Below are positions 19,891 through 40,195 of a stretch of 64,000 nucleotides of DNA, in pieces. The stretch comes from Escherichia coli (GTDB lineage Bacteria > Pseudomonadota > Gammaproteobacteria > Enterobacterales > Enterobacteriaceae): assembly GCF_003334335.1 (NCBI RefSeq), contig NZ_QOWQ01000025.1. One strand, 5' to 3'. The first letter of the stretch is position 1, and each line of letters begins with the position of its first letter. The translations under genes and the position numbers were made by a program. Below the pieces are notes generated by a model. It had not been told where the DNA came from. It searched no databases and saw nothing but the letters and a program-made list of their open reading frames with translations.

Positions 19891-21081
19891 TTAATTGCTG
19901 TTAACCGAAGTGACCAGATTTGCCAGGTATTTATCGGTAATACGCTGGCGCAGGGTCAGGTTTTCAAGAGGAGGCACCGGGGTATAGTCGTAGTCGATAT
20001 ACAGTTTTCCGGCCTTGAGGGTTTCCGCATCGTTGGATTCTTCGCTGAACCAGCAGGTCGCATCCACGATATAGCCGTTTGTTTTCAGCTCACGGAATTT
20101 GGCATTGATGCCGTCAACGATGTCGCGAATCAGCGTTGCGGTGATGGGCTTGTCCACCGCCCACATGTGCGCCTCAGCCATCGTGTCGGCCAGCACCTGC
20201 GCGGTGCGGGTGTAGTTTTCAAAGAGGAACAGCGGGTCATCCGAGCAGGTACGGTTACCCCAGAAGCGGAAACCGTCACGGCGAATCAGCGTTGTGACAC
20301 CTGACTCATTAAGCAGGTCAGCATCGGTGCCGGACTCCTGCAAATCCCAGAATACAGAGGCACTGATGCCGGTAACACCGTTTACCCCGACATTGGACAG
20401 CGTTTTATGCCATCCCTGCTCCTGGTCGATTCTGGCACGCAACCCCAGCGCACGGGCGGTGGCATACGCGGTGGCGGTGGTACTGGTGACCGTATCCCAT
20501 GCGAGGAAATCCGGCCAGATGACCATCAGCTCACGCTGGCTGAAATTCTGGCGGTAGGCTTTCACCTCGGAAATGGTCTTACAGCCCCATGCGCTGATAT
20601 ATCCGAAAGCACGCAGCTTCTGACAGACGGATGCCAGTGCAACAGCCACCTCTTTGGTATCCAGTCCCGGCACACCGAGAATACGCGGTTTAACACCGGT
20701 TACCGACTCCGCCGCCAGCAGGGCTTTCAGTCCGGTGTACTGACCGTTTTCGTCGGTGGTGCCGATGATATTGGAAACGGTCTGCGCGAGTTTCGTTTCC
20801 TCGTCGTCGCCGGTGCCGTCTTCCACACGCACGACAACGGTGACCGGTTTTGACTGGTCGGCGATGGCCTGCAACGATGCCGCCAGCGTGCCTTTTTTAC
20901 CGGCCTTTGCAATTGCGCTCTGTACATTGGTTATCAGCACCGGTTTATTGAGGGGGAAGGTTTCCGCATCCGCATCGCTGGCCGTGCAGACCATGCCGAC
21001 AATGGCCGTGGATACGGTGGAAATGACGCGGGTGCCGTCGTTAATCTCCAGCACCTGCACGCCGTGATGATAGTCACTCAT
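19891..21081 (-). CDS. FI: Contractile tail sheath protein gpFI (396 aa)
   Basis: Position and length match P2 FI. Confidence 0.9.
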   Translation of the reverse strand: MSDYHHGVQVLEINDGTRVISTVSTAIVGMVCTASDADAETFPLNKPVLITNVQSAIAKAGKKGTLAASLQAIADQSKPVTVVVRVEDGTGDDEETKLAQTVSNIIGTTDENGQYTGLKALLAAESVTGVKPRILGVPGLDTKEVAVALASVCQKLRAFGYISAWGCKTISEVKAYRQNFSQRELMVIWPDFLAWDTVTSTTATAYATARALGLRARIDQEQGWHKTLSNVGVNGVTGISASVFWDLQESGTDADLLNESGVTTLIRRDGFRFWGNRTCSDDPLFLFENYTRTAQVLADTMAEAHMWAVDKPITATLIRDIVDGINAKFRELKTNGYIVDATCWFSEESNDAETLKAGKLYIDYDYTPVPPLENLTLRQRITDKYLANLVTSVNSN

Positions 21082-21185
21082 CCGTTTAACTCCGTGGTTA
21101 ATGGGTGCAACTATTTTCTGTTGTGCAGAGTATGAGGCGCTATTTGACCTGGCTGGTCAGTGGATGAAACAACAGATAAAGAAAA

Positions 21186-21204
21186 GGCGGGCAATTCGCC
21201 CGCC
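21186..21204 (-). terminator. GC-rich stem-loop, candidate terminator upstream of FI
   Basis: GGCGGGC / loop aattc / GCCCGCC, flanked by an A-run on plus (U-run on minus). Confidence 0.4.
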
Positions 21205-21481
21205 TGTCCTGATTTGTACTCACTCATTTTCCGCCTGACAATTTACATAGCCCAAATGCTATCAAATCTGACAGCCTGCTTTGAGCGAGTAACTAAATTT
21301 GATTTAAATAAATTATAAGGATTCAAATGTTATTGGCACAAATTCCTGAGATGCAAACAGTCACACTAAGTGTTCAAACAAGGTTCTGGACTACGGCTAA
21401 CTCATCAGTTAAGTTTGTTTCCGACCTGTCGTTTCTTCCCTGTCAGGAGTCACTTTTCGTGTTATTTTTTAAGGATGTTTT

Positions 21482-22261
21482 ATGAGTAATGAAACACAAT
21501 CATTCCTTAGTCAATTGCTAATATCCATAATCTCTATATCTTTAGGGTCATTTCTTTTTGCTGGAATCCTAGAGAGCTACAAAAAAGACCAAGATCTTCA
21601 GGAGGAGTTTATAAAGGATTACTTTAGGCCAATGATGAAATTACAAAGTTCTTGTTCATCTTCACATAATGAACTATTTCTAAAGTATGGAGAGTTATCT
21701 GCTTCTTATCAGCTCATGTATAATGAAATAGTACATATGGCAATGAGCCCTGATTCAGAATTAGGACAACATTATGAAGTTCTCCCGATATCTCTTATTA
21801 AAACAAATGAAGAGTTAAAAAAAAGAGTTGAAGATCTTGAAATGACGGTAAAAAAATGCAATGTCGATTTATTCCTTAAGTACGAAGAGCTTGCATTAGT
21901 TACTGGTTCATATCCAGAGTTTAAGAGGCTGGCGAAAAAACACACTGACACAATTAACTCCATCTATTCAGAAAGACAAAAAAAAGCAAAGGGAAATGCA
22001 AAAAATATAGACCCTGATCAACTAATTCCATTGATGCGGAAATATATTGCCATGGATCCACACACCAATGTAAACAAATCCATGCTTGCCAGTGAAATTG
22101 ATAACATATCTAAACTAACAACACAGCATAATTTGATAATGGCAGAATATGAGGAGTTAATTTTCAAAGAAGATAATGATTTATTTATAACTCTTCATGA
22201 TCTTTATGCAATCAAAATTAGTGAAAAGTATTCAGGTGGATTTATCAGTTGGATATTTTAA
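21482..22261 (+). CDS. Cargo island 1 (Z/fun position): hypothetical 259-aa protein, N-terminal TM helix plus helical domain
   Basis: AT-rich ORF on the opposite strand to the flanking tail genes, with an RBS (AAGGA) 7 nt upstream. Hydrophobic segment LLISIISISLGSFLFAGIL near the N-terminus. Sits where P2 carries Z/fun. Confidence 0.75.
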   Translation: MSNETQSFLSQLLISIISISLGSFLFAGILESYKKDQDLQEEFIKDYFRPMMKLQSSCSSSHNELFLKYGELSASYQLMYNEIVHMAMSPDSELGQHYEVLPISLIKTNEELKKRVEDLEMTVKKCNVDLFLKYEELALVTGSYPEFKRLAKKHTDTINSIYSERQKKAKGNAKNIDPDQLIPLMRKYIAMDPHTNVNKSMLASEIDNISKLTTQHNLIMAEYEELIFKEDNDLFITLHDLYAIKISEKYSGGFISWIF

Positions 22262-22339
22262 AACATGATAACTCATCAGATACAATGCTAACTATGTAGA
22301 ACGCGTAAATCTGTGAAGGTTACCAATGTGTTAGGTAAT

Positions 22340-22363
22340 GTCCGCTCCTTGCACAGAGCGGAC
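22340..22363. terminator. Stem-loop between cargo 1 and gene G, possible bidirectional terminator
   Basis: GTCCGCTC / loop cttgcaca / GAGCGGAC perfect 8-bp stem; the flanks are only weakly U-rich. Confidence 0.35.
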
Positions 22364-22412
22364 TGTCAGATTAGGCTTTACTCTGTGCTATAGATATGTC
22401 AGCTCATACAAC

Positions 22413-39192: not shown

Positions 39193-40194
39193 TCACCGAG
39201 CCATCTTGACTGCATAATGAACACAAAAATAATGTTCTCCCGCATATCTAAAATGATGTTCAATTTTTCTCAAACCTATATATGGAGTCTCCACTTCTTT
39301 AATCCCAACTATCTCATGAGATTCTACACCAATATCTACCGGAGTAATCTCTTTTAGATAATCAATGTATCTCTCACACCAAGCATCAAATTTTGCACCA
39401 GTATAATAAGCAATTAAAAACAAGCGTTTAACATTAATAGGATTATAGTTACCAATTAGCTTTGAATAATGCTTTAATATGTTAGCTTGATCTAGAGATT
39501 TTAAAATCAATGCTTCTATTATAGCAAATAGATTTCCTTTATCTTCAATAACAAGATCTAATTCACCCGCACTTTTACCAGATTGAGACTCTCCCTCTCT
39601 AGTTTGATCTTTTACCTCATAATTCTTAGCTAATAACATATCCCGTATAAAATCATTAAAATCATCTTCACCATATCCTTTAGCAGAGCGACGCCCCAAT
39701 CTTTGAAGCACCCAAGATAAATCACTATCAAACTTTATAAAATTCAAAGGACGCTGCACTCGACCATCCTTTGATATTAAGCTTATACTATTAAGATTTA
39801 ACAAATTAATCCTTTGCCTGATTAATTCATCAATATATCCAGAGTAACTATTATTATCTAACACTACGATATGCTTATCAAAAGTAGTGGCTGCATTAGC
39901 AACTGCACAAACAACTATATCCTTAATATCCTCAGAACTATTCGGCACTGGTGTACGCAATATCTTGCCTGAAGGAGCTTTAGATAACTCAGACTCCCAC
40001 TTCTTAAAAAACAAAAAAGAATCCTTGTTGTTTCCGCAAGACTTTAAATAACCTAAGCGAATTTTTCCATCAGCATCAAGAATCAACTCATTTTCACCAT
40101 TAACAATGGTTTCAATAAAAAAACCGCTAAAAACTTTAACATCAGAAATATTAGCAGCAACAAATTCAGGACACAAACAAACAGCACAAAGCAT
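39193..40194 (-). CDS. Cargo island 3: 333-aa partner/effector protein of unknown family (possible nuclease)
   Basis: AT-rich ORF whose ATG lies 1 nt after the upstream ATPase stop. Contains a D-x3-E-x-K-like stretch (ELDLVIEDKG); no family confidently recognised. Confidence 0.6.
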   Translation of the reverse strand: MLCAVCLCPEFVAANISDVKVFSGFFIETIVNGENELILDADGKIRLGYLKSCGNNKDSFLFFKKWESELSKAPSGKILRTPVPNSSEDIKDIVVCAVANAATTFDKHIVVLDNNSYSGYIDELIRQRINLLNLNSISLISKDGRVQRPLNFIKFDSDLSWVLQRLGRRSAKGYGEDDFNDFIRDMLLAKNYEVKDQTREGESQSGKSAGELDLVIEDKGNLFAIIEALILKSLDQANILKHYSKLIGNYNPINVKRLFLIAYYTGAKFDAWCERYIDYLKEITPVDIGVESHEIVGIKEVETPYIGLRKIEHHFRYAGEHYFCVHYAVKMAR

Positions 40195-40195
40195 A

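What the first reader, a model, noticed from the sequence alone, without database searches (positions are those of the whole stretch)
21482..22261. Single membrane-anchored 259-aa gene replacing Z/fun between tail genes FI and G
The FI-G junction carries Z/fun in P2. Here it holds a single AT-rich gene on the opposite strand to the tail operons, with its own RBS and a 400-bp upstream region. The product has one N-terminal hydrophobic helix followed by a charged, predicted helical domain (ELFLKYGELSASYQLMYNEIVHMA...EELKKRVEDLEMTVKKC) and no motif I recognise. The arrangement suggests a single-gene exclusion, abortive-infection or anti-defence function.
Basis: partly seen in the sequence, partly recalled or inferred. 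Interest (0 to 1): 0.65.

Follow-up and report, generated by a model that had tools for sequence, protein, structure and literature searches.

The report
Membrane-anchored defence candidate in P2 hotspot
A P2-like prophage of E. coli carries, at the spot where phage P2 keeps its anti-T5 gene, a mobile one-gene cassette. Its product is an uncharacterised inner-membrane protein that probably projects a disulfide-stapled helical bundle into the periplasm, and it is most likely a new anti-phage protein, although no function has been tested.

Summary
The ORF is real: 21482-22261 (+), 259 aa, 32% GC, between FI and G of a P2-like prophage. It is gene L-413Cp20 of Yersinia phage L-413C and occurs in 13 of 5,426 complete E. 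coli genomes.

It belongs to a small family of about 260-aa proteins that is under purifying selection. The family has no Pfam, NCBIfam, PADLOC or PDB match.

What I add:
- **Topology.** Flank charges, a relative fused behind a cytoplasmic caspase domain, and a Cys58/Cys126 pair that is lost together all place the helical domain in the periplasm.
- **Context.** Relatives outside phages sit directly beside type I RM, an Mrr-type nuclease and a type III CBASS operon.
- **Cassette.** The gene is a roughly 1-kb cassette bounded by 24-bp hairpin units. The same junctions delimit cassettes carrying PD-T7-1 and PD-T4-3 family genes in other prophage-like contigs.

Best reading: a single-gene, envelope-level anti-phage protein. 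I put an entry block (superinfection exclusion) ahead of a membrane-based abortive mechanism. Anti-defence is not supported. Function is inferred, not shown.

The Z/fun locus is already a known defence hotspot, so this is a good candidate rather than a surprise. The hairpin-junction cassette arrays are the more unusual by-product.

The parts
21482..22261 (+). CDS of the 259-aa protein (same gene as L-413Cp20 / NP_839869.1; PHROG 7729)
21503..21574 (+). Codons 8-31: the single transmembrane helix. Its second half (LGSFLFAGIL, aa 21-30) is the most conserved block of the protein and contains small-residue spacing (S18xxxG22, S23xxxA27).
21653..21655 (+). Cys58 codon (TGT), one half of the co-varying cysteine pair
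21857..21859 (+). Cys126 codon (TGC), the other half of the pair. All five family members that lack Cys58 also lack Cys126.
21290..21481 (+). Cassette-specific 192-nt leader, with SD AAGGA at 21471-21475. It is about 80% conserved at nucleotide level with chromosomal homologues. No consensus sigma-70 promoter was found and there is no Rfam match.
21274..21289 (.). Left cassette boundary: a truncated 'B' hairpin unit (GCCTGCTTTGAGCGAG)
22340..22363 (.). Right cassette boundary: a complete 'A' hairpin unit (GTCCGCT-CCTTGCACAG-AGCGGAC)
21265..21274 (.). P2 backbone inverted-repeat arm AATCTGACAG. Its partner CTGTCAGATT lies at 22363-22372.
22363..22372 (.). P2 backbone inverted-repeat arm CTGTCAGATT
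21082..21264 (-). Conserved P2 backbone upstream of FI, not part of the cassette. It contains the pF late promoter region (by position relative to the P2 annotation) and a terminator-like hairpin at 21185-21205.

Best explanation
The gene is the cargo of a mobile, roughly 1-kb single-gene cassette in the Z/fun accessory slot of a P2-like prophage. It most likely protects the lysogen against other phages from within the cell envelope.

The protein is a bitopic inner-membrane protein, N-in/C-out. It has a cytoplasmic tail of about 10 residues and one highly conserved TM helix. The remaining roughly 225 residues form a periplasmic helical bundle whose longest helices span about 7-8 nm. A Cys58-Cys126 disulfide staples the bundle. 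The C-terminal hydrophobic tail (GGFISWIF) returns to the membrane surface.

The membrane-proximal collar and the TM helix are conserved, whereas the distal tip is variable. My preferred mechanism is superinfection-exclusion-like. The variable tip meets a component of the incoming phage's ejection machinery in the periplasm, and the conserved TM/collar acts at the inner membrane. Genome entry is thereby blocked without killing the cell.

Shown here: the gene is real, the family is conserved, its contexts are defence-rich, and the cassette has defined ends. Inferred: topology and disulfide (strong inference), defence role (moderate inference), entry block (weak inference).
For: Gene and family: 91 representatives at 50% identity, almost all 250-300 aa; dN/dS 0.08-0.33; GC 0.31-0.36 in every host, so it is horizontally mobile.

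Topology:
- There is a single hydrophobic segment, and the N-flank is more positive than the C-flank in 76 of 98 members against 1 opposite.
- P0119 has an intact Peptidase_C14 caspase domain (aa 2-219, i-E 7e-17; the SGHG and DAC motifs are visible), then one TM, then the family domain. This places the family domain outside the cytoplasm.
- Cys58 (95%) and Cys126 (93%) are the most conserved columns of a 100-sequence alignment. 79 of 100 members have exactly two Cys, and all 5 members lacking Cys58 also lack Cys126.
- Both Cys lie 30 residues from the ends of the helix-1/helix-2 hairpin in the AF2 model (pLDDT 80, pTM 0.71).

Defence association:
- The locus is a published defence hotspot (PMC9519451).
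- A relative lies directly after hsdMSR in Vibrio sagamiensis.
- A relative lies directly after an Mrr_cat nuclease in Enterobacter ludwigii.
- The caspase fusion lies after a type I RM with an AAA_13 gene.
- One member starts at the base after the NucC stop of a complete type III CBASS operon.
- Another member has a 951-aa Peptidase_C14 protein 1.1 kb away.
- The same A/B hairpin cassette format carries genes matching the PD-T7-1 and PD-T4-3 models.
- Pycsar and an ABC-ATPase pair occupy the other two accessory sites I examined in this prophage.

Autonomy: it is always a lone gene with its own conserved leader. Relatives at 78% identity or less are not in P2 tail regions, so it is not a phage assembly function.

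Entry block specifically: there is no cytoplasmic domain to sense or signal. The distal tip is variable while the membrane-proximal core is conserved.
Against: There is no experimental datum for any member, and I found no paper mentioning the gene.

There is no homology to any known exclusion or defence protein: PADLOC gives 0 hits, Fun(Z) is unrelated, and PHROGs gives only an unknown family. Fold searches return only generic or designed helical bundles, so the fold gives no functional lead.

In the close relatives the N-tail has no basic residue and KK follows the TM, so their own charge signal is weak. The topology rests on distant relatives, one fusion and the Cys pair. I could not read the model coordinates, so the Cys-Cys distance is unverified.

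The caspase fusion, the CBASS adjacency and the unusually conserved TM helix fit a signalling or pore-forming (abortive) mechanism at least as well as a passive block.

Several contexts are uninformative (Marinomonas, Pantoea, L016, Burkholderia plasmid). No sigma-70 consensus promoter was found upstream, and an AT-rich gene may be H-NS-silenced.
Confidence: 0.4

Rival explanations
1. Abortive-infection sensor-effector. The periplasmic bundle detects the incoming phage or envelope damage. The conserved TM helices then oligomerise (small-xxx-small face) and depolarise or permeabilise the inner membrane, killing the infected cell. In fused relatives the same signal activates a cytoplasmic caspase-like protease.
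For: The TM half 21-30 is the most conserved block of the protein (0.68) and has S18xxxG22 / S23xxxA27 spacing. That is more than a simple anchor would need. A Peptidase_C14 fusion and a Peptidase_C14 neighbour imply signalling across the membrane. One member abuts a CBASS operon. Single- or few-TM proteins are usual suicide effectors in CBASS and Pycsar, including the PycTM of this same prophage.
Against: The 259-aa form has only about 10 cytoplasmic residues and no partner gene. The CBASS operon beside P0072 is already complete with NucC, so that neighbour is not needed as an effector. There is no similarity to any TM effector model in PADLOC. Constitutive carriage in a viable phage (L-413C) requires tight control of any toxic activity.
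Confidence: 0.27
2. A non-antiviral envelope function ('lysogenic conversion'). Examples would be immunity against a periplasm-acting bacteriocin or T6SS/Rhs effector, or modulation of an envelope process that benefits the host.
For: In Pectobacterium the gene lies in an Rhs/PAAR toxin and orphan-immunity region with a SymE toxin nearby. UniProt names two members 'lysogenic conversion protein'. Periplasmic membrane-anchored helical proteins are a common format for immunity proteins (general knowledge). Some contexts show no defence genes.
Against: In no context examined is it adjacent to, or co-oriented in an operon with, a toxin gene. In Pectobacterium it keeps its own leader and sits about 4 kb from the Rhs module. 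Immediate neighbours are antiviral systems in five independent contexts (plus the P2 hotspot). The 'lysogenic conversion' name is an annotation label, not a tested function.
Confidence: 0.15
3. A phage-benefiting function: anti-defence, lysis timing or virion assembly.
For: It lies between two tail operons and is carried by a viable phage (L-413C). T4 RI-type antiholins are also N-terminally anchored periplasmic helical proteins (general knowledge).
Against: All relatives at 78% identity or less lie outside P2 tail regions, in chromosomal islands or on a plasmid. Only 6 IMG/VR contigs carry it, all 98-99% identical copies. Over 98% of P2-type FI-G loci in E. coli carry other cargo (13 of 1,010), so it is dispensable for the phage. 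Known anti-defence proteins act in the cytoplasm, whereas this domain is predicted to be periplasmic.
Confidence: 0.05

Closest known systems
P2 Fun(Z) (NP_046777.1), the classical occupant of this locus
   Same: Same slot between G and FI. Same orientation, opposite to the tail operons. AT-rich accessory gene. Annotated in the P2 record as blocking growth of T5 when cloned.
   Different: Fun(Z) is 528 aa. BLASTP against the 259-aa protein finds no significant similarity (best E 0.41 over 14 residues).
Classical superinfection-exclusion proteins (T4 Imm and Sp, P1 Sim, HK97 gp15, P22 SieA); comparison from general knowledge, sequences not tested here
   Same: Prophage- or phage-encoded single genes whose products sit in the inner membrane or periplasm and block genome entry of other phages. 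They need no cytoplasmic sensor.
   Different: No sequence relationship was detected: PHROGs returns only unknown family 7729, and tblastn against 50,697 phage records finds only L-413C. The long disulfide-stapled bundle and the family's mainly chromosomal distribution are not features I know from those proteins.
Periplasmic four-helix-bundle sensor domains of chemoreceptors (Pfam 4HB_MCP type)
   Same: An N-terminal TM helix followed by a long antiparallel helical bundle outside the membrane. One AFDB family member is auto-named '4HB MCP domain-containing'. The caspase-fused relative has a receptor-like layout.
PD-T7-1 and PD-T4-3 single-gene defence systems (Vassallo et al. 2022, PMC9519451)
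   Same: Genes of these families are carried as roughly 1-kb single-gene cassettes delimited by the same A-18 nt-B hairpin junctions, in a lambdoid prophage and in a contig of unidentified element type. The same paper places three of its systems at the P2 fun locus.
   Different: The proteins are unrelated; PADLOC models give no hit for the 259-aa protein.
Transmembrane effectors of CBASS/Pycsar (for example the PycTM at 29125-29664 in this prophage)
   Same: Small membrane proteins found in defence loci. One family member directly follows a CBASS operon.
   Different: Those effectors are paired with a cyclase and a nucleotide sensor and usually have two or more TM helices. This gene is solitary, has one TM and a large periplasmic domain, and matches no effector model.

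Membership tests
P2 Fun(Z) | Sequence homology to Fun(Z) | tested here: not met
   BLASTP best E 0.41 over 14 aa
P2 Fun(Z) | Position between G and FI, on the opposite strand to the tail operons | tested here: met
Known and candidate defence families (PADLOC-DB v2.0.0) | Match to any of 5,027 defence-protein HMMs | tested here: not met
   0 families at E <= 1
PHROG 7729 (unknown function) | HMM match | tested here: met
   E 2.7e-125 over aa 79-259. The profile lacks the N-terminal 78 residues, presumably because some phage annotations start at Met79.
Pfam / NCBIfam curated families | Any significant HMM match, for the query or for 59 diverse members | tested here: not met
4HB_MCP-type periplasmic sensor | N-terminal TM helix followed by an extracytoplasmic antiparallel helical bundle | tested here: inconclusive
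   AF2 gives an all-helical model. Periplasmic location is inferred. There is no profile match.
4HB_MCP-type periplasmic sensor | A second TM helix and a cytoplasmic signalling module | tested here: not met
   Only one hydrophobic segment in 99 of 100 members. The protein ends at aa 259 with a 9-residue tail.
Superinfection-exclusion proteins (functional class) | Prophage-encoded, envelope-located, single gene | tested here: met
   Met by prediction only
Superinfection-exclusion proteins (functional class) | Blocks genome entry of other phages without killing the host | not testable with these tools
   Needs plating, adsorption and DNA-entry assays
Abortive-infection membrane effectors (functional class) | Infection-triggered membrane damage or cell death | not testable with these tools
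   Needs growth curves at high and low MOI, and membrane-potential dyes
A/B-hairpin-bounded cassettes (P2 'Z-region' type; GenBank AJ512685 annotates left and right inverted repeats) | Cargo flanked by a B unit (GTCYGCT-nTGAGCGAnn-AGCRGAC) on one side and an A unit (GTCCGCT-CnTGGCACAn-AGCGGAC) on the other | tested here: met
   Truncated B at 21274-21289 and complete A at 22340-22363. The same ends occur around chromosomal copies.
Integron gene cassettes | attC recombination site and an IntI integrase nearby | not tested
   A family member is named from Vibrio sp. DAT722, a strain I recall from integron studies, but I did not examine that locus. The A-18-B junction here was not compared formally with attC models.

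The most novel reading that the evidence does not exclude
The 259-aa protein founds a new class of envelope-resident phage sensors. In this reading a periplasmic, disulfide-stapled bundle recognises the incoming ejection machinery, and in some relatives it is wired to a cytoplasmic caspase-like protease. The gene also travels as one unit of an under-described cassette system. In that system roughly 1-kb single-gene defence cassettes, separated by a 66-bp double-hairpin junction (A unit, 18 nt, B unit), are exchanged between P2-like phages, lambdoid prophages and chromosomal arrays of Enterobacterales, with no recombinase gene recognised beside the arrays I examined. This could be the missing recombination substrate behind the rapid swapping of prophage defence loci.
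Probability: 0.2. Interest if true: 0.75.

Novelty: new variant of a known kind. Interest (0 to 1): 0.5.

Why it matters
If it is confirmed as a defence gene, it would add a family in which the whole working part of the protein faces the periplasm. That would make it a useful handle on how bacteria detect or stop phages during genome delivery, a step for which few dedicated proteins are characterised. The caspase-fused relative suggests that the same outside-facing module can drive an intracellular protease.

Separately, the hairpin-junction arrays offer a concrete, testable sequence basis for how single-gene defence cassettes move between P2-like phages, lambdoid prophages and chromosomes. 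A 2026 preprint on P2/P4 hotspots states that this process is still to be elucidated (10.64898/2026.02.27.708500).

Tried and rejected
- **Profile and sequence searches found nothing.** Pfam, NCBIfam and PADLOC gave no hit, and PHROGs returned only an unknown family. A per-member Pfam scan of 59 relatives showed no consistent family.
- **PDB searches found nothing meaningful.** Profile searches returned only designed bundles or noise.
- **No homology to Fun(Z)**.
- **The CBASS-effector idea was rejected.** The family member after NucC is not needed as the effector, because the operon is already complete (TRIP13, HORMA, HORMA, CD-NTase, NucC).
- **A Cys/His metal site was rejected.** His62 (73%) and His85 (55%) are much less conserved than the two Cys, which co-vary as a pair.
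- **The 52-aa upstream ORF is not a conserved gene.** ORF 21327-21485 overlaps the main start by ATGA. In homologues it stops after about 16 codons or lacks the ATG.
- **The leader gave no clear signal.** There is no Rfam match, only a weak consensus structure with little covariation, and no sigma-70 consensus hit on the + strand.
- **No ERIC repeat is present.** No match to the ERIC2 primer sequence, recalled from memory, occurs in the window.
- **Two restriction cassettes are unrelated.** The E. coli 'restriction endonuclease' cassette at the P2 locus is not the Enterobacter Mrr_cat cassette.
- **Literature.** No paper mentions the gene's accessions. Garcia 2008 on L-413C is not held in the library. 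I did not attempt to open Nilsson 2004, which I could only find cited in reference lists.

Full report
**1. Observation**

The window holds a P2-like prophage of E. coli. Host genes mdtABCD-baeSR and trhP lie to its left. The prophage extends to an integrase-like gene at 46939-47952.

Between the sheath gene FI (19891-21081, -) and the tail-fibre assembly gene G (22413-22940, -) lies one ORF, 21482-22261 (+), of 259 codons. An AAGGA Shine-Dalgarno sequence sits 6 nt upstream. GC falls to 0.32-0.34 over the gene, against about 0.56 in the tail genes. The strand is opposite to both tail operons, as it is for fun(Z) in P2.

The same 259-aa CDS is annotated as a hypothetical protein in Yersinia phage L-413C (L-413Cp20, 98.6% nt identity) and in E. 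coli GB089. About 1,010 of 5,426 complete E. coli genomes carry the conserved flanks of this locus, but only 13 carry this insert.

One correction applies. The left 208 bp of the 'upstream region' (21082-21289) is conserved P2 backbone. It contains the pF late promoter region, located by position relative to the P2 annotation, and a terminator-like hairpin. Only 192 nt (21290-21481) belong to the insert.

**2. The protein family**

A word-indexed search of 5.8 billion proteins found 45 clusters, nearly all exactly 259 aa. They come from Enterobacter, Pantoea, Pectobacterium, Superficieibacter, Teredinibacter, Vibrio and Marinomonas. An exhaustive profile search of 1.84 billion representatives found 91 proteins at E <= 0.001, almost all 250-300 aa. 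Only 6 of about 100,000 species representative genomes contain a close relative, so the family is real but rare.

dN/dS against the window copy is 0.08-0.33. The gene is 31-36% GC in every host, so it is a functional, horizontally moving gene. No Pfam, NCBIfam or PADLOC model matches, and PHROG 7729 (unknown function) covers aa 79-259 only. Scanning 59 diverse members individually against Pfam gives no consistent family. There is no sequence match in the PDB and no similarity to Fun(Z).

**3. Structure and topology**

AlphaFold2 with a 24-sequence alignment gives a confident all-helical model (pLDDT 80, pTM 0.71). It has a TM helix at 8-31, then helices 37-88, 101-141, 144-172, 178-190 and 196-250, and a short C-terminal tail. 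Fold searches return only generic or designed helical bundles and other family members. One AFDB member is auto-named as a 4HB-MCP protein.

Three independent lines place the helical domain outside the cytoplasm:

- **Flank charges.** Members have a single hydrophobic segment, and the N-flank is more positive than the C-flank in 76 of 98 members, with 1 opposite. Distant members begin MKKKTKA-, MKKWQRNT- or carry long basic N-extensions.
- **A domain fusion.** One metagenomic relative, P0119 (512 aa), has an intact Peptidase_C14 caspase domain at aa 2-219 (i-E 7e-17; SGHG and DAC motifs). This is followed by a basic stretch, one TM helix and then the family domain. A cytoplasmic protease in front of a single TM puts the family domain in the periplasm.
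- **A co-varying cysteine pair.** In a 100-sequence alignment the two most conserved columns are Cys58 (95%) and Cys126 (93%). 79 sequences have exactly two cysteines, and all five sequences lacking Cys58 also lack Cys126. In the model both lie 30 residues from the ends of the helix-1/helix-2 hairpin (88 and 96), so they sit at the same height. This is the signature of a structural disulfide, which forms in the periplasm.

I could not read the model coordinates, so the Cys-Cys distance remains unverified.

Conservation is highest in three places: the second half of the TM helix (LGSFLFAGIL, 0.68), the juxtamembrane segment together with the 131-150 turn, and the C-terminal tail. It is lowest in 81-120 and 151-240. 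From the helix lengths, the conserved parts all lie at the membrane-proximal end and the variable parts at the distal tip. This last step is inference.

**4. Genomic contexts**

Only copies at >= 98% aa identity sit between P2 tail genes: L-413C, the E. coli genomes and 6 IMG/VR contigs. More distant relatives are solitary genes in other settings:

| Organism or sample | Context |
|---|---|
| Vibrio sagamiensis | Directly after hsdM-S-R, followed by DUF4440 and an HNH protein |
| Enterobacter ludwigii | Directly after an Mrr_cat nuclease |
| Metagenome, caspase fusion P0119 | After a type I RM with an embedded AAA_13 gene |
| Metagenome, P0072 | Starts at the base after the NucC stop of a complete type III CBASS operon (TRIP13, HORMA, HORMA, CD-NTase, NucC) |
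| Metagenome, P0139 | A 951-aa Peptidase_C14 protein lies 1.1 kb downstream |
| Pectobacterium | An Rhs/orphan-immunity region |
| Teredinibacter | Next to an IS110 transposase |
| Burkholderia | A conjugative plasmid |

Other contexts are uninformative.

Within this prophage, the orf30-equivalent site holds Pycsar (PycC at 27762-29150, PycTM at 29125-29664). The tin/old hotspot holds an ABC-type ATPase plus a 333-aa partner. Vassallo et al. 2022 describe the fun locus as a second defence-enriched locus of P2-like phages that held three of their systems (PMC9519451).

**5. The cassette**

Alignment with other P2-like phages shows that conserved backbone ends at 21289 and resumes near 22338. 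The insert is bounded on the left by a truncated 'B' unit (21274-21289, GCCTGCTTTGAGCGAG). On the right it is bounded by a complete 'A' unit (22340-22363, GTCCGCT-CCTTGCACAG-AGCGGAC). Backbone arms AATCTGACAG and CTGTCAGATT lie outside these units.

The 192-nt leader and the 3' flank, including the unit halves, are conserved around chromosomal copies of the gene in Phytobacter, Superficieibacter, Citrobacter, Enterobacter and Pectobacterium. The unit that moves is therefore leader, gene and ends together.

Where two cassettes are adjacent, the junction is always an A unit, 18 nt, then a B unit. Examples are:

- E. coli EcPF40 P2-like prophage, between a DUF3800 gene and a 461-aa gene
- Citrobacter amalonaticus
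- Enterobacter ludwigii, where the Mrr_cat gene is itself a cassette
- A lambdoid prophage, after the ren gene, where one cassette matches the PD-T7-1 model (PADLOC E 9e-157)
- IMG/VR contig L059, whose element type I did not identify: an array of at least four cassettes, one matching the PD-T4-3 model (E 1.7e-137)

An intact junction occurs in 434 of 5,426 E. coli genomes. Of the 120 IMG/VR contigs fetched with an exact A unit, 70 show no P2 FI or G gene within the fetched locus.

GenBank AJ512685 (P2-EC67 Z-region) already annotates left and right inverted repeats. From memory, Nilsson et al. 2004 proposed site-specific recombination at this locus, but I did not read that paper. Two recent hotspot preprints do not mention hairpins or inverted repeats.

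**6. Interpretation**

The gene is not a structural or assembly gene, because its relatives are mostly outside phages. It is autonomous, because it is always solitary and keeps its own leader. It also keeps company with restriction, CBASS and other defence genes in five independent settings, and it shares a cassette format with genes of two defence families described by Vassallo et al.

I put the probability of an anti-phage role at about 0.65. Because nearly the whole protein is predicted to be periplasmic, with only about 10 cytoplasmic residues, it must act at the envelope.

- **Entry block, about 0.4.** I favour a superinfection-exclusion type mechanism. It needs no cytoplasmic sensing and fits a variable distal tip on a conserved membrane-proximal core.
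- **Abortive membrane mechanism, about 0.27.** This is favoured by the unusually conserved TM helix with small-residue spacing and by the links to caspase-like proteases. It cannot be excluded.
- **Non-antiviral envelope or immunity role, about 0.15.**
- **Phage-benefiting or anti-defence role, about 0.05.**

**7. Novelty and score**

That this locus holds unknown defence candidates is established, so the finding is not surprising in kind. What is new here is threefold: a protein family with no curated model, a probable periplasmic disulfide-stapled architecture with a caspase-fused relative, and the hairpin-junction cassette context.

I rate it a new variant of a known kind, with interest 0.5. 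The cassette-array observation is the part most worth independent follow-up.

Noticed in passing
window 21274-21289 and 22340-22363; L042 2507-2572; L026 2535-2600 and 3606-3671; L031 6124-8882; L047 6164-7403; L059 2245-5310: Single-gene cassettes of about 1 kb are separated by a fixed junction: a 24-bp hairpin 'A' (GTCCGCT-CnTGGCACAn-AGCGGAC), 18 nt, then a 24-bp hairpin 'B' (GTCCGCT-nTGAGCGAnn-AGCGGAC). Such arrays occur at the P2 FI-G locus, after ren in a lambdoid prophage, in contig L059 (element type not identified) and in chromosomal islands of Citrobacter and Enterobacter. Cargo includes genes matching the PD-T7-1 and PD-T4-3 models and an Mrr_cat nuclease. An intact junction is present in 434 of 5,426 E. 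coli genomes. No recombinase gene was recognised beside the chromosomal arrays examined (L026, L031). The P2 part was probably described by Nilsson et al. 2004 (not read).
   Followed up: partly
window 27762-29664 (-): A complete Pycsar system in an AT-rich island at the P2 orf30-equivalent site: PycC cyclase at 27762-29150 (PADLOC E 1e-128) and PycTM effector at 29125-29664 (E 9e-28).
   Followed up: partly
window 39193-41863 (-): A two-gene system at the tin/old hotspot between portal gene Q and replication gene A. The 555-aa ABC/AAA-type ATPase matches NsnB, HEC-03B, AriA and GajA-like models. The 333-aa partner has no PADLOC or NCBIfam match.
   Followed up: partly
L004 8001-9539 (protein P0119): A metagenomic relative fuses an intact Peptidase_C14 caspase domain, one TM helix and the family's periplasmic domain, and lies beside a type I RM with an AAA_13 gene. 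A second member (P0139, L168) has a 951-aa Peptidase_C14 protein with a weak Amidase_2 match 1.1 kb downstream.
   Followed up: partly
L163 1706-6085: A family member (P0072, 270 aa) begins at the base after the stop codon of NucC in a complete type III CBASS operon (TRIP13, HORMA, HORMA, CD-NTase, NucC). An unannotated 284-aa gene follows it.
   Followed up: partly
window 21290-21481 (leader) and 21327-21485 (52-aa ORF): The 192-nt leader is about 80% conserved at nucleotide level among homologues whose proteins are only 62-80% identical, including an invariant AAGGTTCTGG block. There is no Rfam match and only a weak predicted stem-loop. The overlapping 52-aa ORF (ATGA overlap with the main start) is open only in this lineage.
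   Followed up: yes
L008 9127-9513; L031 9041-9397: A DUF4440 (SnoaL-like) gene lies immediately next to the family gene in both Vibrio sagamiensis and Enterobacter ludwigii, in different orientations. This may be coincidence or a second linked cassette.
   Followed up: no
L029 8001-8775: The Pectobacterium sp. PL152 copy aligns in two overlapping tblastn pieces, which suggests a frameshifted pseudogene.
   Followed up: no
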